Source of the DNA: a virus
Reading direction: 5' to 3' (one strand)
Length of the DNA stretch: 64,000 bases
Virus record (IMG/VR): IMGVR_UViG_3300008117_007749
A model generated the notes under the pieces. The model had not been told where the DNA came from. It did not search any database and worked only from the letters and a program-made list of their open reading frames with translations. Shown here piece by piece: positions 2,208 through 63,269 of this stretch (positions are counted from its first letter, which is position 1; every line of letters starts with the position of its first letter). The position numbers were made by a program, and so were the translations under genes.

Positions 2208-2741
2208 TCAGTCATTTCCAAACAAATGCTCTAATTTCTTATCTCTTATGTAAGCTAATTTCAGTGATTCTAGTGTTGAAGTAACATTATCTATTTTATC
2301 AGTTATCCAAGTATCTACTTTGTGTAAATCTTTATACTCTTTTCTAATACAAAAATCATTAACATCATCACTGGTTTTGTAATGAAATTCTTTTGCTACA
2401 ATTATCGAGTCAATTTCGAATTTTTGTATTTCAGAAATATATTGCCACATATTATTTTTTGTAATTGACCAAAAATCAAACACCAATAAATCAACTCTAA
2501 ATAAATTTGACTTATCATTTATTTTTTCTGAAAAGTCTTCAAATTTTGAAAATTCAATTTTATTGTTTAAATAGTGATAAAGACAAAGGTCATGATATTT
2601 AGAAGATGAACTAGGTTTATTAGGTGTAAAAAGTAAATAATTTCTTCCGGCTAAATCAAAAAAATTAACTATCTGACTAACACCAGAACCAACTTCACTT
2701 ATATCACCAGTGAAATAATTAAACTTTTTTAGGTCGACCAT
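2208..2741 (-). CDS. Hypothetical protein with C-terminal IRDKKLEHLF motif
   Basis: ORF; start at MVDLKK, overlapping the upstream gene end. Confidence 0.6.
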   Translation of the reverse strand: MVDLKKFNYFTGDISEVGSGVSQIVNFFDLAGRNYLLFTPNKPSSSSKYHDLCLYHYLNNKIEFSKFEDFSEKINDKSNLFRVDLLVFDFWSITKNNMWQYISEIQKFEIDSIIVAKEFHYKTSDDVNDFCIRKEYKDLHKVDTWITDKIDNVTSTLESLKLAYIRDKKLEHLFGND

Positions 2742-3117
2742 GATGATTCTTCTTTTTAACATCGACCACAAAATCATTGACGTGAAGAAATCTTCTTCCT
2801 ATCAGAAGTGGGTATTTCATTTCTTTTCTATTAGATAAAGAAACAAATATACTATATTTTTTTTGACCAATTATAATTTTAGTTTTAATTGCGTATCTTT
2901 TTTGTTTTTCACCATTGGAGCTCTTAACTTCTATCTCGGACCAATTACAAAAATGATAAGTATTATTTCCAATTTTTACTTCTAACTGATTTTCTAATTC
3001 TTTAATTGAATCTACATGTAAAGAAGCATTAAAAGCACCAGTATCTATCTTAGCTGTTAAAAAACCTTCTAATAATTTTGGAAAAAAAACTTTCTCTAAT
3101 CTACCAATTTTTTTCAT
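2719..3117 (-). CDS. Retropepsin-like aspartic protease (RimK-associated 'putative ATP-dependent Zn protease' family)
   Basis: AKIDTGA..SLH, VKSSNG..QKRY, LSNRKEMKYPLLIGRRFL. Confidence 0.8.
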   Translation of the reverse strand: MKKIGRLEKVFFPKLLEGFLTAKIDTGAFNASLHVDSIKELENQLEVKIGNNTYHFCNWSEIEVKSSNGEKQKRYAIKTKIIIGQKKYSIFVSLSNRKEMKYPLLIGRRFLHVNDFVVDVKKKNHHGRPKKV

Positions 3118-9284: not shown

Positions 9285-10046
9285 ATGAACCAAACTCATT
9301 CTTTCACATACGTTATTGGATATAGACACCAAATAGATAGATTAAACAACCTCAGAAGAGTTTTAGATTGGATAAACGGATTTATGGGTGTAGAAGTTTT
9401 ATTAATTGAACAAGATACACATTCTAAGATATCACATATGGGTCTTAGATGTAAGCACGTTTTCTTAAAATCAAATAAACCGTATAACAAATCGTGGGCA
9501 TTTAATTACGCCACCAAGATAGCAAAATCAAATATAATTGTTTTTGCTGATTCAGACCTACTGATGGATCCTAATCATTTTATTGAATCTCTTAAACATT
9601 TAGAACAATTTGAAATGGTGAATCCTTATAATTCAGTAATTGATCTAGAACCCCAAGAGTCAGCAATGCAGTTTGAAGATGTAATAAAGATTAATAGACC
9701 AGGTAGAGGAGAAACCGACCACCAAAAAGTTCCAATTTGTGGAGGAATTTGTATGTTCAGAAAAGACGCAATAAATAAAATCGGCGGATGGAATGAAAAT
9801 TTTATCGGATGGGGAGGAGAAGATGACTTTGTATCTATCAAAGTTCAACATTTTTTAAATTGGAAACAAATGGAAGCAAAATGTTATCATCTCTTTCATT
9901 CAAGACCTCAACCAGATATGAATCTATATCAAAAAAATTTACAACTTCACAACACGTATCTGAATATGACTAAAGAAGAATTCTCAAAACAACTTTATAA
10001 AGATATTGCTCGTAATGGTTTAAAAAACAAATATGACACATTTTAA
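9285..10046 (+). CDS. Glycosyltransferase (GT2/GT7 galactosyltransferase C-terminal-like)
   Basis: YNKSWAFN, FADSD, GGWNENFIGWGGEDD, HLFH. Confidence 0.8.
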   Translation: MNQTHSFTYVIGYRHQIDRLNNLRRVLDWINGFMGVEVLLIEQDTHSKISHMGLRCKHVFLKSNKPYNKSWAFNYATKIAKSNIIVFADSDLLMDPNHFIESLKHLEQFEMVNPYNSVIDLEPQESAMQFEDVIKINRPGRGETDHQKVPICGGICMFRKDAINKIGGWNENFIGWGGEDDFVSIKVQHFLNWKQMEAKCYHLFHSRPQPDMNLYQKNLQLHNTYLNMTKEEFSKQLYKDIARNGLKNKYDTF

Positions 10047-10779
10047 AGAACAATTAAAAACTATCTGTAACTATTCAGATAAGCAAATGAAATTGCCTAA
10101 TGCTCAATTAATGTATGTTGATATGATTTCTTCAGATGACGAAGAGTATCAGAGAAAAGTTAAACAACAAAATAGAGAATTGGTTGTTGAGGCTATATTA
10201 GATGATAAAGTCGAAGAGTTAAACATATTTAGAGAAAATCAAGTAGTTGATGTCTCTAACCAATATAACTCGACATCCACAATGGGCGTTATCGGTCCGA
10301 AAATAATGCAAATTAATATGACTGCTCAAAGATTTGAGAGTTATGAAAAGAGTTGGAATGAAGTGATTGATTTCTTAAATAAAAATACACAAAGTCCAAA
10401 ATCTAAAGCAAATGGACCATACTCATCATTAGATATCACTTTACAAGATGATTTTGATGTAGATTATAGAAAGATAATCTCAAAGATACTAATGTGTTCT
10501 AATATAATTGCGATGGATGGTAGAATTGGATCAGGAACATCAGTAATATATGGAAAAAACCTCTTACCATATATGTCTCAGTTTGATAAGGATAATAACG
10601 GAAATAACTTAACTACTTATTATAGTAAATTGGTTGATGATGATAAAGTAATTGTTTGTAGAGGAAATAATATAGACCAACCAGGATTACTATTTATCGA
10701 TAATTCACTAACTGGAAACTACTTCTTTAATCAAACTCCAAACTGGCATAAACAATATTGTTGGTTTAGAATTATTTAG
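10033..10779 (+). CDS. Truncated paralog of this phage's major capsid protein
   Basis: Colinear blocks shared with 61563..63269: LMYVD/LLYID, GVIGPKI (identical), RKIISKILMCSNIIAMDGRIG/RKLVTKIAHASNYIATEGRVG, KVIVCRGNNIDQPGLLF/RIVLGRKNNPDQPGIIF. Confidence 0.75.
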   Translation: MTHFKEQLKTICNYSDKQMKLPNAQLMYVDMISSDDEEYQRKVKQQNRELVVEAILDDKVEELNIFRENQVVDVSNQYNSTSTMGVIGPKIMQINMTAQRFESYEKSWNEVIDFLNKNTQSPKSKANGPYSSLDITLQDDFDVDYRKIISKILMCSNIIAMDGRIGSGTSVIYGKNLLPYMSQFDKDNNGNNLTTYYSKLVDDDKVIVCRGNNIDQPGLLFIDNSLTGNYFFNQTPNWHKQYCWFRII

Positions 10780-11335: not shown

Positions 11336-12565
11336 TCACTTTAAATCAAATTCTTTTGATAACTCATAATCAAAAATATTTTTGATTTCTTCTTTATATA
11401 TTTTAGGAAAAACTATACTATCATGAACCGTTATTAATTTTATATCAGGATATAAAATCATAATTTTTTTTATGATTTTATTGTAGATTAATTTTGATTC
11501 AGCTCTTTGTAAATCATGAGCCAATACTTTATGATTACCCCATTCTTTTTTATATAACTTTATGAAATTATAAATTGTAGGAAATAATTTATTAAATTCA
11601 ATGTCCGCTTTTGAGTTGCTTCTGTTTCTTCCAAAAAGAACCTTATATGTCATTTCCTTTACTAAATTTCTATCTTTTTCACCAGTTGATTGCATTAAAA
11701 ATTGATAAAATTTCCCAGTCATTGTTAGTTGCTTAAAAAATTCAAATTCATCTCGATTGACCCATGCGGTTTGTGAGTCAGAAATCAATTTACATAAGAA
11801 AAGAGGCTGACTATTTTTAATATCTAATTCAAAAGTCTCTAGTCCGTCTATTAATAAACAATTTTTACGTATAAATGATTTTAGTATTGTAAAATTTGTA
11901 TGAAGTCTTCCATAATCATCAAAATGGTAAAATATATGTTTATCATTTATTGATTCAACTGAATAAATATTTCTATTATAAATGTCAATGTCTTCTTTTT
12001 TAAGACAGTTCAAATAAAATAGACTTCTTTCAAAATCAATATCAACTGAAAAAAGGTCTGATATTAATTTTTCTCGTATATCTATATTAATAGAAGACTT
12101 ATCAATATCTACAAATTCAATAGTGTCAAATATTTTCTTTTTATATTTTTTTACCAAAACTTTATCTTGATTATTTGTTCTTTTAATCTGTTCTTTAAAT
12201 ATTGTAGGATTTAAAGAATAGATTCTAGACGTAACACCTTTTTTATAATTACAAATCATCTTTATTATACTTTTATCAACAAGATAATCAATATAATGTT
12301 TGTATAAGTATCCATATTTATCTTTTAAAACTTGAGCATTTATCGTAAATTTATTTTCTTTCTTAAAATAATATTTAAGAAGAAGGTTATGAACGATATC
12401 AATTAAGTAAGAAGTCTTAATTTTTTCATCTTTGTAAAAGATATGACTTGTCTTGGAAACTAATTCAAGACATTTAGGTAAGAATTGTAAAGATTGATTT
12501 TTTTTATTAAGTTTTTTAGTAATATTTGATTTATAAAGAGAAGGTAAATTATTGGATATTTTCAT
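11336..12565 (-). CDS. Minimal family-A-fold polymerase-like protein (no exonuclease domain)
   Basis: DDYGRLHT, motif A LDIKNSQP, motif B RNLVKEMTYKVLFG, LQRAES, motif C ITVHDSI. Confidence 0.6.
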   Translation of the reverse strand: MKISNNLPSLYKSNITKKLNKKNQSLQFLPKCLELVSKTSHIFYKDEKIKTSYLIDIVHNLLLKYYFKKENKFTINAQVLKDKYGYLYKHYIDYLVDKSIIKMICNYKKGVTSRIYSLNPTIFKEQIKRTNNQDKVLVKKYKKKIFDTIEFVDIDKSSINIDIREKLISDLFSVDIDFERSLFYLNCLKKEDIDIYNRNIYSVESINDKHIFYHFDDYGRLHTNFTILKSFIRKNCLLIDGLETFELDIKNSQPLFLCKLISDSQTAWVNRDEFEFFKQLTMTGKFYQFLMQSTGEKDRNLVKEMTYKVLFGRNRSNSKADIEFNKLFPTIYNFIKLYKKEWGNHKVLAHDLQRAESKLIYNKIIKKIMILYPDIKLITVHDSIVFPKIYKEEIKNIFDYELSKEFDLK

Positions 12566-12600: not shown

Positions 12601-12792
12601 TTAAGGAAATATATTTTTGATTGAATTTTTTCGTTTTTCAATTCTAAAAATTCTTTCTATTTCTTTCTCTAAGGAAACACCATGATATGAGTTTAAATCC
12701 TGCACCATTTCATGTGACCAAGTAGCTCTTAGAGATCTTGTTTCAGATCTAACCTCAACAGAAGTCATATTAAGATTAATTTCCTTCATCAT
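12601..12792 (-). CDS. Small protein resembling a segment of canonical T4-type gp23, fused to a KRKNSIKNIF tail
   Basis: EINLNMTSVEVRSETRSLRATWSHEMVQDLNSYHGVSLE resembles the gp23 segment (K/S)R.LKA.(W/Y)(S/T).ELAQDL.A.HG.DA. Confidence 0.6.
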   Translation of the reverse strand: MMKEINLNMTSVEVRSETRSLRATWSHEMVQDLNSYHGVSLEKEIERIFRIEKRKNSIKNIFP

Positions 12793-14129
12793 TTAAGAGG
12801 TGTTTTAGGCTCGTCTGTTGATTCTGGTGTTATTGGCATTTTTCCACCTTTTCCTTTTTTCTTTTTATCAGAAGGAATTCCTTTCTCAAACTCATCATAT
12901 ACGTCAGGATATACTTGACCCTCAGCATCTGTGTCATATTGAATCTCAAAGAAGTCACCAAAGTCTAAAAGACCAGCTCGTCCTAATTCTATTTCATGCA
13001 TCTTATTTAGATATTTAGAAATATATACATCAATATCATCTACAAATTTGTTAAATAAACTGACTGTATTTTCCGTAAATACACCAATAGCTTTCTTTCT
13101 CTTTTTATTGAATGATCCTAATATCACTTTAAAAATATATTCTAACTTTTTATCTTCTGTTATATAGTCTTTAGTTAATTTATTTTTAATTAACTCGGTA
13201 TTAATTTTGAACTTCTCTTTGTCGAAAAATTCAGGAACAGTGAAGTCAAAATTTAATAAATCTTCTTTTACTTCACTCATATAGATATTGAATAACTTAC
13301 AAATAAGATAGATGTAGATTTCATCCTTTTTCTCACCTTTTAAATTTATATCGGTCAAATTTACCGACTGACAAAAATTTAAGAAATTCACAAGTATTAA
13401 AGTATAAATTTCAACAAAATCTGTCTGATTAGTATCACTGAATCTTTTATAAAGAGGATTCAATAATTCAAAAGAAATATCTCTACTTTGACTTCTAATA
13501 ACTAATTTTTCTAAATTCTTTTGAAAGTCTTCATTCATTAAAAAGGAATTATCTAAACTAGGATTTAGTATTTTATAGAAAAAATAAGCAAATGATTTTT
13601 CACCAAAAACATATTCTAAATCTTCTTCCGAAGTGTTAATAAAGTATTTTATCGCCTCTTTCATAGTCTCGGTCAATTGACCCTGGTAAATAACGGGTAT
13701 CAAATCAACTTGAAATAATCTAGCATACTCATCTAACTCATCTATTGAAAAGTCATACTTTTTATTTTTATTAATAGCAGTGATAACTAATTGATTTTGA
13801 GGAACTCTATTATACTCAATATTAGCAGGTTGATTATCAGGAAAATATTCAAAACAAAACCACCATTTTCTATTGAGTAAATTCTTCACATTTACGTCTA
13901 ATTCACTAAAGAACTTAATTACCGGATTATAGTAATTTTGCATAGCCAAATCTATCAAATTTATTGGCTCATTTGAAATAGACTTTGGTCTAATTTCAAA
14001 TTCATTTCCATTCCAATTGACCCATATTTTTGATCCTTGAATATCTTCCAATACAAGGATTTCATCATTGAACAATTCTGATATAAGTTGCTCATCGTCA
14101 ATTCCATTTAAGGTTATTAATTTACTCAT
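12789..14129 (-). CDS. RNA ligase (Rnl2)-like fold protein, probably catalytically inactive
   Basis: Motif I reads LEDIQGS instead of EKxDGS; FCFEY motif III-like; IPVIYQG. Confidence 0.5.
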   Translation of the reverse strand: MSKLITLNGIDDEQLISELFNDEILVLEDIQGSKIWVNWNGNEFEIRPKSISNEPINLIDLAMQNYYNPVIKFFSELDVNVKNLLNRKWWFCFEYFPDNQPANIEYNRVPQNQLVITAINKNKKYDFSIDELDEYARLFQVDLIPVIYQGQLTETMKEAIKYFINTSEEDLEYVFGEKSFAYFFYKILNPSLDNSFLMNEDFQKNLEKLVIRSQSRDISFELLNPLYKRFSDTNQTDFVEIYTLILVNFLNFCQSVNLTDINLKGEKKDEIYIYLICKLFNIYMSEVKEDLLNFDFTVPEFFDKEKFKINTELIKNKLTKDYITEDKKLEYIFKVILGSFNKKRKKAIGVFTENTVSLFNKFVDDIDVYISKYLNKMHEIELGRAGLLDFGDFFEIQYDTDAEGQVYPDVYDEFEKGIPSDKKKKGKGGKMPITPESTDEPKTPLK

Positions 14130-56472: not shown

Positions 56473-56801
56473 TCTAATAGATTGTCAATATTAAAGTCTC
56501 TATAAACTTGTTTTGTTATATCACCTAAACCAGTATCAAGTAATTTATCAAAATTTGAATCTGTTGAGTCAATCTCATAATCTTTAAGTGTTTCTAAATT
56601 TTTATTATACCACATATAAAAGAAATCACATGCAGTCTCAACTATATCTTCATAAGAAGGTTCCGAAACTGAATCATAAGCACAAAATAAAATTCTAACA
56701 TCTAATGGCTGTTCAGTGTCATAGATAATATCAATTGATTTATTCCAATTTAAGTTTATAGTAAATCCTAATTTTTCAATTCTATCTAAATGATCAAACA
56801 T
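56469..56801 (-). CDS. Hypothetical protein with C-terminal YRDFNIDNLL motif
   Basis: ORF in operon. Confidence 0.6.
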   Translation of the reverse strand: MFDHLDRIEKLGFTINLNWNKSIDIIYDTEQPLDVRILFCAYDSVSEPSYEDIVETACDFFYMWYNKNLETLKDYEIDSTDSNFDKLLDTGLGDITKQVYRDFNIDNLLD

Positions 56802-57024
56802 TTTTTAATATTTTACTAAGTTTATTCTCTCTTTTATCTTCTATTTCAATTGGTTCTACTATTATCTCACCGTTTGATATTCTAATTTCCCATTTGTTAC
56901 CAGTGACATCATCAAGTAGAGCTAATTTTTTTATAACACAATAACCATCTGGTTCTATTCTAAGAACAGAATCACCAGTTGAACTATTCACATTAAATAT
57001 ATTAGGTTGAAGTTTAACAGTCAT
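56794..57024 (-). CDS. Small beta-rich protein with C-terminal KRENKLSKIL motif
   Basis: ORF in operon. Confidence 0.6.
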   Translation of the reverse strand: MTVKLQPNIFNVNSSTGDSVLRIEPDGYCVIKKLALLDDVTGNKWEIRISNGEIIVEPIEIEDKRENKLSKILKNV

Positions 57025-61562: not shown

Positions 61563-63269
61563 TTAGTTAAGGAAACCAGCTGCATCTACAACTTTGATAG
61601 TCATAAATTGCTTTTGTGGGAACCAACCAACTTCAGCAACTGCATATCTACTTCTTAGTAACATTCTTGGAGCGAATGTAGCTTCAGAAATGATAGAGAT
61701 TGACTGAGCCATTAAGTAAGGTACGAAAATGATACCTGGTTGGTCAGGATTGTTCTTTCTACCAAGAACGATTCTGTTGTCGTTATATTTCATATATGGA
61801 TCAACATAGATTGAAATATCACCAATTGAACCTACAGGGTAAAGTTGTCCAGAAGCATTCATTTTAGACTTCAACGGGTTAATTGTATAACCAGCGATAT
61901 CAGATAGAGCTGCAGCAAGACCTCCGTTTGTAATAACGTACTGAGCAGGACCTACACGACCTTCAGTTGCGATATAGTTAGAAGCGTGAGCAATCTTAGT
62001 GACAAGCTTTCTTTGAACAGCGTGAGTAGTTTCACCACCAGGACCACCTGTACCAACATAAGCTGTGTTTAAGTCGAAGATAGTCTTACCAGCTGGGTCA
62101 CCAGTTAATGCTGCACCTGCTGCTGGAGCTGAAGTTCTGTTAAGATCACCTAATTCAAAAATCTTAGCAACGATTTGCTTAGAGATTGTTTGAGATAATT
62201 CATTAACAAGAATAGATTCCATTTTTTGAACGATATCCATACCTGTGTTAGCTTTGATATCTTCAATTTCAGTTCTTCTAAGAGCTGAAGATACTTCGAT
62301 AGTACCAACTGCGATAGTTTTAGAAGAGATTTTTGGACCGATAACACCTGAGTAAGTATCATCATCATCCTGACGAGACATTGGGTAGTTTCCAGTAAAT
62401 CCAGAAGCTCCTGATGTCCAGTTTGAAGAGAATCCAGGGATATGATCTTCAAGAGCTGATACTAATTCAACTGTTAAGTTAGCAGCACCTGGAGTAACAG
62501 ATACAGTACCTACTGTAGCGATTTGATCAACCATTGACATAGTTGCATTGAAAGTGTTTCTTGTTTCATCAAATGACCAAAGAGCACCAGCACCACTATT
62601 AACAGCTGTATGAGATGTATTAAATTGTCTGAAAGCTCTAAACATTGGATAACCATCAATACGAGAGAATCCTAAGAATTCAACAACACCCGCTCTAGAA
62701 CCACCTGGATCAGCAGCAGCATTTACAGTTGAACCGTAGATGTTTGTGAACCATCTTCCTTGAAGACCACCTTGTGTTTGAGCACCAGCGTTAGCTGTCA
62801 AAGTAGCATTTACAGCAGCTTTCTGAGCAGCATCATCAACGTTTAATTTGAAAACTTGTGGTCTTTCATCTTGTTGTCCCAATCTTGTATCATCATATTG
62901 GAAGTCAATGTAAAGTAAGTCGATTTTTGGACCTGGAGAAGGTTTAACAGCAACAAGGTCAAGACCGATTGTTTGAGCTGCGATTTTCATAGCTACAGGT
63001 AATAGGTTTTGACCAACATCACCAGAACCAGGAGTTCCTGTGTAGTTAGCACCTACTGTTGTTCCAGCAGGACCACCAATTACTGGGTTCAATACTGCAC
63101 CCATACCAGCTACGTTAGAAGCGTTTACATACGCGTTCTCATTAATTGAGTGATACTCAGCATATTCTGACATCCAATCAAGTCTGTCTTCACCTGCTAC
63201 ACCCATGTTCTCAAGAACTGGAGACCACTTCTTAAGAGCTTTTGATTTGTCTATTCTAATGTGTGACAT
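61563..63269 (-). CDS. Major capsid protein (gp23-like)
   Basis: KKWSPVLE, AAQTIGLDLVAVKP, D..ESILVNEL.Q.I, VG..G...IYVDPY, GIIFVPY, TFAPR....SRYA; highly biased codon usage. Confidence 0.92.
   Translation of the reverse strand: MSHIRIDKSKALKKWSPVLENMGVAGEDRLDWMSEYAEYHSINENAYVNASNVAGMGAVLNPVIGGPAGTTVGANYTGTPGSGDVGQNLLPVAMKIAAQTIGLDLVAVKPSPGPKIDLLYIDFQYDDTRLGQQDERPQVFKLNVDDAAQKAAVNATLTANAGAQTQGGLQGRWFTNIYGSTVNAAADPGGSRAGVVEFLGFSRIDGYPMFRAFRQFNTSHTAVNSGAGALWSFDETRNTFNATMSMVDQIATVGTVSVTPGAANLTVELVSALEDHIPGFSSNWTSGASGFTGNYPMSRQDDDDTYSGVIGPKISSKTIAVGTIEVSSALRRTEIEDIKANTGMDIVQKMESILVNELSQTISKQIVAKIFELGDLNRTSAPAAGAALTGDPAGKTIFDLNTAYVGTGGPGGETTHAVQRKLVTKIAHASNYIATEGRVGPAQYVITNGGLAAALSDIAGYTINPLKSKMNASGQLYPVGSIGDISIYVDPYMKYNDNRIVLGRKNNPDQPGIIFVPYLMAQSISIISEATFAPRMLLRSRYAVAEVGWFPQKQFMTIKVVDAAGFLN

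What the first reader, a model, noticed from the sequence alone, without database searches (positions are those of the whole stretch)
12601..12792. 63-aa peptide resembling a foreign (canonical T4-type) capsid segment rather than the phage's own
Seen: TRSLRATWSHEMVQDLNSYHGVSLE resembles the conserved gp23 strand-helix (T4 SRQLKAAYSIELAQDLRAVHGMDAD). The equivalent region of this phage's MCP reads TIEVSSALRRTEIEDIKANTGMDIV. The fragment is fused to a KRKNSIKNIF tail. Inference: a captured capsid epitope that could poison assembly of co-infecting T4-like phages or titrate capsid-sensing defences.
Basis: partly seen in the sequence, partly recalled or inferred. Interest (0 to 1): 0.75.

Follow-up and report, generated by a model that had tools for sequence, protein, structure and literature searches.

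The report
Capsid-excerpt mini-protein with shared handle
A giant uncultured phage keeps a tiny, selected gene that copies the most conserved stretch of a standard T4-type shell protein (not of its own divergent shell protein) and joins it to a short helical tag shared with other mini-genes built from shell, portal and fibre pieces; the design is undescribed in print and its job, most likely molecular mimicry, is untested.

Summary
Observation confirmed. The 63-aa ORF (window 12601-12792, minus strand) matches Pfam Gp23 at E 7.6e-11 (42.4 bits, cut-off 24.4). It is 42-50% identical to canonical full-length capsid proteins but has no BLAST match to the resident capsid protein, whose own equivalent segment scores only 21 bits.

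It is a real gene, not a relic. Dozens of 50%-identity clusters of 50-75 aa match its whole length. Gene order is fixed (RNA-ligase-like, mini, PolA-like) and dN/dS is 0.13-0.35.

The KRKNSIKNIF tail is a separate peptide module, R-K-x-S/K-I-x-K/N-I-F. It marks four small ORFs in this contig and ten in a complete 634-kb relative, with zero in the control. Their N-terminal parts are other capsid pieces, and probably a portal piece and a fibre-like piece.

AlphaFold gives a helical tail and an unfolded excerpt.

"Recently captured" is not supported: this is an old clade-wide gene. Mimicry as a decoy or assembly poison remains the best reading, at about 0.3, and is untested.

This scan has already noted similar "piece plus handle" mini-genes in other megaphages. 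I found nothing about them in the literature.

The parts
12601..12792 (-). 63-aa mini-gene ('type A'): a capsid excerpt plus a handle
   Evidence: ORF found. Pfam Gp23 E 7.6e-11. Conserved family. dN/dS 0.13-0.35.
12649..12789 (-). Residues 2-48: an excerpt of a canonical gp23-type capsid protein, comprising the strand returning from the E-loop, a short helix, the Y-H-G turn and the start of the spine helix. It corresponds to T4 gp23 residues 256-296.
   Evidence: AlphaFold gives residues 1-26 extended, helix 27-36, and a helix from residue 41.
12607..12639 (-). Residues 52-62: the shared basic helical handle E-K-R-K-N-S-I-K-N-I-F
   Evidence: Invariant E52, R54 and IKNIF58-62. The same peptide motif, spelled with different codons, occurs in 3 other small ORFs of this contig and 9 others in relative LR745206.1. 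Predicted helical with pLDDT 88.
12789..14129 (-). Upstream 446-aa gene, RNA-ligase-like (a lead only). Its stop overlaps the mini-gene's start (ATGA).
   Evidence: Always upstream of the mini-gene in relatives.
11336..12565 (-). Downstream 409-aa gene, a minimal family-A-polymerase-like palm protein (a lead only). It follows the mini-gene directly in every locus examined.
Evidence: Synteny.
61563..63269 (-). Resident major capsid protein (568 aa), divergent in the stretch that the mini-gene copies
10033..10779 (+). 248-aa cut-down paralogue of the resident capsid protein (A-domain region). It is a different kind of capsid derivative in the same neighbourhood.
Evidence: BLASTP against the resident capsid protein gives E 7e-9 over residues 420-516.

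Best explanation
Shown: the ORF is a functional, protein-coding gene of a Bacteroidota-type megaphage clade. Its first ~48 residues are an excerpt of the most conserved P-domain stretch of a canonical T4-type capsid protein (strand, short helix, start of the spine helix). They are not taken from the phage's own capsid protein. Its last ~12 residues are a separate basic amphipathic helix, R-K-x-S/K-I-x-K/N-I-F, which is also carried by other small ORFs. The N-terminal parts of those ORFs are other pieces of the same canonical capsid type: the spine helix, the V-Y-x-D-P-Y strand and the A-P-Y-I-P...S-R-Y C-terminus. In a complete relative, the set probably also includes a portal piece and a fibre-like piece.

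Inferred, as the most likely mechanism: molecular mimicry by peptide display. The excerpt does not fold on its own. It keeps the canonical residues because it must still be recognised by whatever recognises that stretch in a standard gp23-type protein. That could be a host sensor of unassembled capsid protein, or the folding and assembling subunits of a competing T4-like phage. The shared helix docks all such baits onto one common, still unidentified partner. The phage's own capsid protein has lost the copied motif, so it would be spared.
For: The excerpt is a real homologue of gp23.

It is of the canonical type, not the resident type.

It is under selection. In total 25 clusters at 90% identity and about 45 top representatives at 50% identity match the full length including the tail. 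No ortholog examined has an internal stop or frameshift. dN/dS is 0.13-0.31 pairwise and about 0.3 in each of strand, middle and tail. Its dN is similar to that of its neighbours.

The handle acts at the peptide level, not the DNA level. Arg is spelled CGA, AGA, CGT and AGG, and Ser is spelled TCA and TCT, among the copies.

The handle is specific. A regex hits only 4 ORFs in six frames of 122 kb. The DNA pattern gives 4 hits here and 10 in the complete relative, against 0 for the reversed control. All 10 lie near the C-terminus of ORFs of 35-79 aa.

The other pieces are conserved families too: type B has 45 clusters and type C has 263 proteins.

A portal piece is likely: Pfam Portal_T4 E 0.026, PHROG portal E 0.15, and BLASTP to the resident portal 5e-4. 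A fibre-like piece matches PHROGs at 3e-5.

AlphaFold gives a confident helix for the handle in types A and C and no autonomous fold for the excerpts.

There is precedent that short conserved gp23 stretches and capsid proteins are read by defences: Gol-Lit (PMC3014915), CapRel (PMC9712102) and Avs7/Dsr1 (PMC13581612).

The family is phage-only. A scan of 185,579 prokaryote genomes gave only a spurious guanylate kinase hit.
Against: No binding partner has been identified and no experiment exists. The gene sits among nucleic-acid-enzyme-like genes and is always directly upstream of the PolA-like gene. That could instead mean a role with that enzyme. Avs7 engages mainly the A-domain, not the P-domain pieces copied here (PMC13581612). 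A free Gol peptide activates, rather than blocks, its defence (PMC3014915). The middle of the mini-protein, including Y-H-G, is poorly conserved in distant members. A later check in this scan priced the mimicry reading of a similar family at only 13 in 100 (note e1-4035658). Detecting only the most conserved capsid stretches is partly an ascertainment effect.
Confidence: 0.3

Rival explanations
1. An accessory factor of the phage's own head assembly. The handle would be a prohead- or scaffold-targeting signal, and the capsid pieces would add to, cap or cement the resident capsid lattice. Alternatively, the pieces would reassemble into a split P-domain-like module.
For: All four pieces come from the P-domain. 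Types B, D and C lie in the same order as in a capsid gene lacking its A-domain. Natural single-chain fusions of these pieces exist in metagenomes, namely P0129, P0120, P0151, P0086 and P0128. Scaffold proteins and T4 internal proteins use short amphipathic targeting helices (established knowledge).
Against: The pieces resemble canonical capsid proteins, not the resident one they would have to fit. Types A and B overlap at the start of the spine helix, so they are not clean complements. Type A sits in a non-structural operon with no T4-type late promoter motif nearby. The set also seems to include portal and fibre pieces.
Confidence: 0.2
2. Exapted for a non-capsid role. The protein would be a small subunit or regulator of the adjacent PolA-like or RNA-ligase-like enzymes, with the handle docking it on a replication or transcription hub, as the C-terminal clamp-binding tails of T4 gp43, gp33 and gp55 do.
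For: The mini-gene is strictly adjacent to the PolA-like gene in all loci, even where other genes were inserted between the ligase-like gene and the mini-gene. The start overlaps the upstream stop, which suggests translational coupling. The handle has the K-x-x-I-x-x-I-F spacing of PIP-like boxes with a basic flank (seen in the sequence; the comparison is from memory).
Against: A new role would not explain why the excerpt stays closer to the gp23 consensus than the resident capsid protein does. Types B, C and D and the other tagged ORFs are not next to such enzymes. No gp45-type clamp was found in this contig or in the complete relative, although only PF09116 was searched.
Confidence: 0.2
3. 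A decaying remnant of a second capsid (gp24-like) gene, with no function of its own.
For: It is a fragment. The similarity could be extended slightly upstream through two stops, but with no gain in score. T4 has rnlB next to gene 24 (from memory).
Against: The ORF is intact in every ortholog down to 38% identity. dN/dS is about 0.2-0.3, synteny is fixed, and the tail is conserved.
Confidence: 0.04

Closest known systems
T4 gp23 major capsid protein and gp24 vertex protein (Pfam PF07068; PDB 6uzc, 5vf3)
   Same: Residues 2-48 are homologous to the strand, short helix and start of the spine helix (T4 gp23 256-296). The canonical residues T-R-x-L-R-A-x-W-T-x-E...Q-D-L are retained.
   Different: The match covers only 47 of 376 profile positions. 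There is no N-arm, A-domain or insertion domain, and no autonomous fold is predicted. The protein carries an unrelated helical handle and is encoded in a non-structural operon.
Gol peptide of T4 gp23, activator of the e14 Lit protease (PMC3014915)
   Same: It is a short, highly conserved stretch of a gp23-type protein that is biologically active as a free peptide and is read by a host factor.
   Different: Gol lies in the N-terminal quarter of gp23 (residues 93-122 as I recall them; PMC3014915 gives a 29-residue region in the first quarter). This excerpt corresponds to residues 256-296. Gol is part of the capsid gene, not a separate gene, and it turns a defence on.
Bodo saltans virus ankyrin-repeat proteins carrying fragments of essential viral genes (PMC5871332)
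   Same: Fragments of essential viral proteins are fused to one constant module and multiplied in the genome. The authors proposed that they act as decoys.
   Different: That is a eukaryotic giant virus, and its constant module is a large ankyrin domain rather than a 10-residue helix. The function there is also only hypothesised.
C-terminal docking tails, e.g. the clamp-binding tails of T4 gp43, gp33 and gp55, and PIP-like boxes (established knowledge, recalled from memory)
   Same: A short motif near the C-terminus is shared by unrelated proteins of one phage and would be read by one partner. The spacing is h-x-x-h-aromatic with a basic flank.
   Different: No clamp was found. In type C the motif is internal. 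T4 tails are acidic and hydrophobic, not basic.
Small capsid-redirecting proteins of phage satellites (P4 Sid, SaPI CpmB) (established knowledge)
   Same: These are small proteins that act in trans on another phage's capsid assembly. CpmB does so by mimicking a helper protein's capsid-binding helix.
   Different: They mimic scaffold or form external cages and are not excerpts of the capsid protein itself. They are encoded by satellites, not by a megaphage.

Membership tests
Pfam Gp23 (PF07068), T4-type HK97-fold major capsid proteins | Sequence match above the curated gathering score | tested here: met
   42.4 bits against a cut-off of 24.4, E 7.6e-11
Pfam Gp23 (PF07068), T4-type HK97-fold major capsid proteins | Complete HK97 fold (N-arm, E-loop, P-domain and A-domain) able to form capsomers | tested here: not met
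   Only profile positions 131-177 of 376 are present. The 63-aa model has an extended N-terminus and two helices, pTM 0.32. There was no Foldseek match.
Gol peptide (Lit activator) | Corresponds to the Gol region in the first quarter of gp23 | tested here: not met
   It aligns with T4 gp23 residues 256-296. Gol lies in the first quarter of gp23 (PMC3014915).
Gol peptide (Lit activator) | Binds EF-Tu and activates a Lit-type protease | not testable with these tools
   This needs biochemistry.
Clamp-binding / PIP-like C-terminal tails | Motif at the extreme C-terminus of several proteins, together with a sliding clamp encoded by or available to the phage | tested here: inconclusive
   The tail lies 1-12 residues from the C-terminus in 9 of 10 ORFs but is internal in type C. 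PF09116 found no gp45-type clamp in G000 or LR745206.1. Other clamp families were not searched.
T4 capsid-targeting sequence of internal proteins | N-terminal amphipathic peptide followed by a prohead-protease site | tested here: not met
   The handle is C-terminal or internal, and no L/I-x-E site follows it (read from the sequence).
Megaphage 'virion-protein excerpt + shared handle' mini-proteins (noted in this scan, not found in print) | Small ORF whose variable part is homologous to a conserved stretch of a virion protein | tested here: met
Megaphage 'virion-protein excerpt + shared handle' mini-proteins (noted in this scan, not found in print) | The same short peptide tag on several otherwise different small ORFs of one genome, beyond chance | tested here: met
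   There are 4 hits in G000 and 10 in LR745206.1, against 0 for the reversed pattern. Codons differ between copies.
Megaphage 'virion-protein excerpt + shared handle' mini-proteins (noted in this scan, not found in print) | Purifying selection and conservation across relatives | tested here: met
Pseudogene remnant | Disrupted frames in orthologs and dN/dS near 1 | tested here: not met
   All orthologs are intact and dN/dS is 0.13-0.35.

The most novel reading that the evidence does not exclude
Megaphages run a modular 'excerpt display' system. About ten or more mini-genes per genome each present a conserved, canonical-type piece of a core virion protein (capsid, portal, fibre) on one shared helical handle that a single partner reads. 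The set would work as decoys against bacterial pattern-recognition immunity, or as dominant-negative weapons against co-infecting T4-like phages. The phage's own capsid protein would have diverged at the copied motif so as to be immune.
Probability: 0.25. Interest if true: 0.9.

Novelty: categorically new. Interest (0 to 1): 0.72.

Why it matters
If the reading holds, it reveals a general viral strategy that has not been described: keeping libraries of short copies of the conserved virion motifs that defences or rivals must recognise, all wired to one docking tag. It would give direct experimental handles, in the form of 60-aa peptides, on two open questions. One is which capsid, portal or fibre epitopes bacterial immune sensors read. 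The other is how giant, slow phages fend off faster competitors. It also bears on annotation, because such ORFs are currently unnamed or mislabelled, for example as 'coiled-coil DUF342'. Even without a known function, the result shows that a capsid-gene fragment can survive for a long time as an independent selected gene.

Tried and rejected
1. The tail as a DNA or RNA element (promoter or repeat) read in frame. Rejected: the copies use different codons, the tail occurs only inside these ORFs, and dN/dS in the tail is about 0.3.

2. The tail as the translated 5' end of an intron, or the pieces as exons of one split gene. Rejected: types A and B overlap in profile coordinates (131-177 against 164-194), and in type C the tail is internal.

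3. The tail as simply the second half of the spine helix. An ungapped alignment is possible for type A, but type B has the complete helix plus the tail, so the tail is a separate module.

4. The tail as a strand pairing with the N-terminal strand in a beta-alpha-beta mini-fold. Not supported: AlphaFold makes it helical.

5. A tmRNA-tag origin. ARAGORN finds no tmRNA or tRNA in the window.

6. A gp45-type clamp as reader of the tail. PF09116 was not found.

7. Foldseek of the model against the PDB found nothing.

8. A genome-wide tag in this contig. With the strict motif only the four mini-ORFs carry it. Looser patterns give 7 C-terminal hits against 0.5 expected, but those hits are heterogeneous.

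9. Relatives in prokaryote genomes. The only hit was a spurious guanylate kinase.

10. The six extra tagged ORFs of LR745206.1 have no detectable homologues in this partial contig.

12. Pfam, PHROG and PDB sequence searches gave nothing for the two flanking genes.

13. A literature search found no description of such genes.

Full report
**1. What is there**

The window is part of a 122,303-bp viral contig with 30% G+C, which CheckV estimates at 54% complete. Its nearest public relative is the 634,780-bp uncultured phage LR745206.1.

At 12601-12792 on the minus strand lies a 63-aa ORF. Its ATG overlaps the TGA of the upstream gene, forming ATGA.

- Residues 2-48 match Pfam Gp23 (PF07068) positions 131-177 of 376, at E 7.6e-11 and 42.4 bits against a gathering score of 24.4.
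- They also match PHROG 138 'major head protein' at E 8e-10.

**2. Canonical type, not resident type**

The contig has one full-length capsid gene, at window 61563-63269 on the minus strand (568 aa; 95 bits on the Gp23 profile). The evidence that the mini-protein does not derive from it is as follows.

- The resident protein's equivalent segment scores only 21-23 bits.
- BLASTP of the mini-protein against the resident protein finds nothing.
- Against canonical 550-670 aa capsid proteins from metagenomes, the mini-protein is 42-50% identical over 48 residues.
- In one common alignment the mean identities are: mini to canonical 38%, mini to resident 21%, and canonical to resident 22%.
- The resident protein carries a 7-residue deletion that removes the canonical A-x-W-T-P-E-L.

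The complete relative LR745206.1 has only one full-length Gp23-type gene, and it is of the resident type. So no canonical full-length donor sits in these genomes today.

**3. A selected gene, not a relic**

- A word-indexed search found 25 clusters of 54-67 aa at 71-91% identity. IKNIF, R22, W25, Q31, L33, Y36 and G38 are invariant among them.
- An exhaustive profile search of 1.84 billion representatives found 369 hits. The top ~45 are all 48-74 aa and match the whole profile, tail included. Full-length capsid proteins match only positions 3-48, at E 4e-7 or weaker.
- Gene order is fixed in every contig fetched: a ~445-aa gene, the mini-gene, a ~410-aa gene, then a 179-aa gene. This holds even where the mini-protein is only 38-47% identical.
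- In two lineages another gene has been inserted between the ~445-aa gene and the mini-gene, but the mini-gene stays directly upstream of the ~410-aa gene.
- Nei-Gojobori dN/dS is 0.13-0.31 among close orthologs, with dN similar to that of the neighbours. It is about 0.3 in each of strand, middle and tail in a deeper set.
- Nucleotide conservation is no higher than in the flanking genes.
- A scan of one genome from each of 185,579 prokaryote species gave only a chance match inside a guanylate kinase. The family appears to be confined to phages.

**4. The tail is a shared handle**

A peptide regex for the tail hits only four places in all six frames of the contig. These are the 63-aa ORF and three small adjacent ORFs about 46 kb away, outside the window (L003 1453-2057).

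- **Type B** (67 aa) is the complete spine helix plus the tail (Pfam Gp23 positions 165-194). It forms a conserved family of 45 clusters.
- **Type C** (about 89 aa) is the capsid C-terminus, G-Y-V-W-A-P-Y-I-P ... S-R-Y ..., with the tail inserted in a loop. It forms a family of 263 proteins.
- **Type D** (59 aa) starts with what I read as the V-Y-x-D-P-Y ... K-I-L-x-G-x-K strand that precedes type C in capsid proteins. This is my reading of the sequences.
- The order B, D, C matches that of a canonical capsid gene lacking its A-domain.

The tail copies use different codons for Arg, Ser, Lys and Ile, so conservation is at the peptide level.

A degenerate DNA pattern for R-K-x-x-I-[NEKD]-[KNR]-I-[FY] finds 4 sites in this contig and 10 in the complete relative. 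The reversed control pattern finds 0. All ten sites lie near the C-terminus of ORFs of 35-79 aa.

Besides the four capsid pieces, two of the extra ORFs can be tentatively placed.

- One resembles the C-terminal region of the T4-type portal: Pfam Portal_T4 E 0.026, PHROG 213 E 0.15, and BLASTP to the resident portal 5e-4.
- One resembles tail-fibre-like PHROGs at E 3e-5.

The portal and fibre assignments are weak and should be treated as likely, not shown.

**5. Structure**

- AlphaFold2 with a 54-sequence alignment gives mean pLDDT 79 for type A. Residues 1-26 are extended with no partner, residues 27-36 form a helix, and residues 41-59 form a helix that includes the tail, at pLDDT about 88.
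- For type C the only confident element is again the tail helix, with pLDDT 71-76 against an overall 57.
- Foldseek found nothing.

The picture is an excerpt that does not fold on its own, joined to a helical handle.

**6. Related short forms elsewhere**

Among the profile hits are single-chain proteins that join the same pieces in other ways.

- A plus B in one chain: P0120 and P0129.
- Strand, then helix, then A-P-Y-I-P: P0151.
- A capsid protein without its A-domain: P0086.
- A permuted form: P0128.
- Forms that add the Gol-like V-R-R...V-Q-P stretch: P0065, P0074 and P0100.

Some of these carry other terminal motifs, such as F-K-F-F-R-G at both ends or K-x-L-L-I-E-K. This suggests that different clades use different handles.

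**7. Mechanism**

The strongest argument for mimicry is that the excerpts stay closer to the gp23 consensus than the resident capsid protein does. This suggests they are still constrained by whatever recognises those stretches in standard capsid proteins.

Several defences are known to read capsid proteins or short gp23 stretches.

- Gol-Lit, where a 29-residue conserved gp23 region suffices (PMC3014915).
- CapRel (PMC9712102).
- Avs7 and Dsr1 (PMC13581612).

The other possible target is the assembling capsid of a competing T4-like phage. In that case the resident protein's loss of the motif would give self-immunity.

Several facts argue against committing strongly to this reading.

- The gene's neighbours look like nucleic-acid enzymes. 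The upstream gene is RNA-ligase-like and the downstream gene is a minimal family-A-polymerase-like protein. Both are leads from feature similarity and my own motif reading only.
- Avs7 mostly contacts the A-domain.
- Free Gol activates, rather than blocks, its defence.
- A later check in this scan priced mimicry for a similar family at 13 in 100 (note e1-4035658).

I put mimicry at about 0.3, a role in the phage's own head assembly at 0.2, a role with the neighbouring enzymes or a replication hub at 0.2, and a functionless remnant at 0.04. The rest is unknown.

**8. Novelty**

My literature searches found no description of such genes. The nearest idea in print is the set of Bodo saltans virus ankyrin proteins that carry fragments of essential viral genes, proposed by the authors to be decoys (PMC5871332).

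This scan has noted comparable 'piece plus handle' mini-genes and genome-wide C-terminal tags in other megaphages. Those notes are AI notes. They agree with what I found independently here, but they are not independent evidence of function.

Noticed in passing
G000:C1:112285-112889 (L003 1453-2057, outside the window): Three overlapping small ORFs (67, 59 and about 89 aa) are capsid pieces B, D and C. They lie in capsid order, and each carries the same R-K-x-S/K-I-x-K-I-F/Y motif. In type C the motif is inserted in a loop rather than placed at the end.
   Followed up: yes
LR745206.1 loci L030, L031, L034, L035, L036, L037: Six further ORFs of 35-70 aa in the complete relative end in the same tail. 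The L036 ORF looks like a portal C-terminal piece and the L035 ORF like a tail-fibre piece. The other four match no family.
   Followed up: partly
window 12789-14129 (-): The 446-aa protein is RNA-ligase-like by Atlas features. Its motif-I-like stretch reads E-D-I-Q-G-S-K, with Asp where Rnl2-type ligases have the catalytic Lys (my reading, from memory). The same spelling occurs in the LR745206.1 ortholog. It may be an inactive or unusual ligase.
   Followed up: partly
window 11336-12565 (-): The 409-aa protein has family-A-polymerase-like motifs in the right order (D-I-K-N-S-Q, Y-K-V-L-F-G, V-H-D-S), and H-D-S is the spelling of T7-type RNA polymerases. No Pfam or PDB sequence hit was found. 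It is always directly downstream of the mini-gene.
   Followed up: partly
window 10033-10779 (+): The 248-aa protein is a cut-down paralogue of the resident capsid protein's A-domain region (BLASTP E 7e-9 to residues 420-516). It therefore derives from the resident type, unlike the mini-gene.
   Followed up: partly
window 62145-62324 (-) within the resident capsid gene: The resident capsid proteins of both this contig and LR745206.1 lack seven residues, including the conserved Trp of the canonical ...L-R-A-x-W-T-P-E-L... stretch. That is exactly the part the mini-gene preserves.
   Followed up: partly
proteins P0065, P0074, P0100, P0108, P0113, P0085 (metagenomic hits): These 80-125 aa capsid-piece proteins have an F-K-F-F-R-G-like motif at both the N- and the C-terminus. 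Some include the Gol-like V-R-R...V-Q-P stretch after the spine helix. Their origin and meaning are unknown.
   Followed up: no
window 2208-2777 (-) and 56794-57024 (-): A 189-aa ORF and a 76-aa ORF end in looser versions of the tag (R-D-K-K-L-E-H-L-F and R-E-N-K-L-S-K-I-L). The tag may therefore be used more widely than the strict pattern shows.
   Followed up: no
window 12601-12792 compared with its flanks: Pairwise dS of the mini-gene (0.25-1.07) is lower than that of both neighbours (1.6 to saturated), although windowed nucleotide identity is similar. With only 63 codons this may be noise, or it may reflect codon constraint.
   Followed up: partly
L021 5636-5968 and L026 2246-2440: In two lineages a gene has been inserted between the ligase-like gene and the mini-gene: a GGACT-family gene on the opposite strand in L021, and a 64-aa ORF in L026. 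This breaks the ATGA coupling but not the adjacency of the mini-gene to the PolA-like gene.
   Followed up: no
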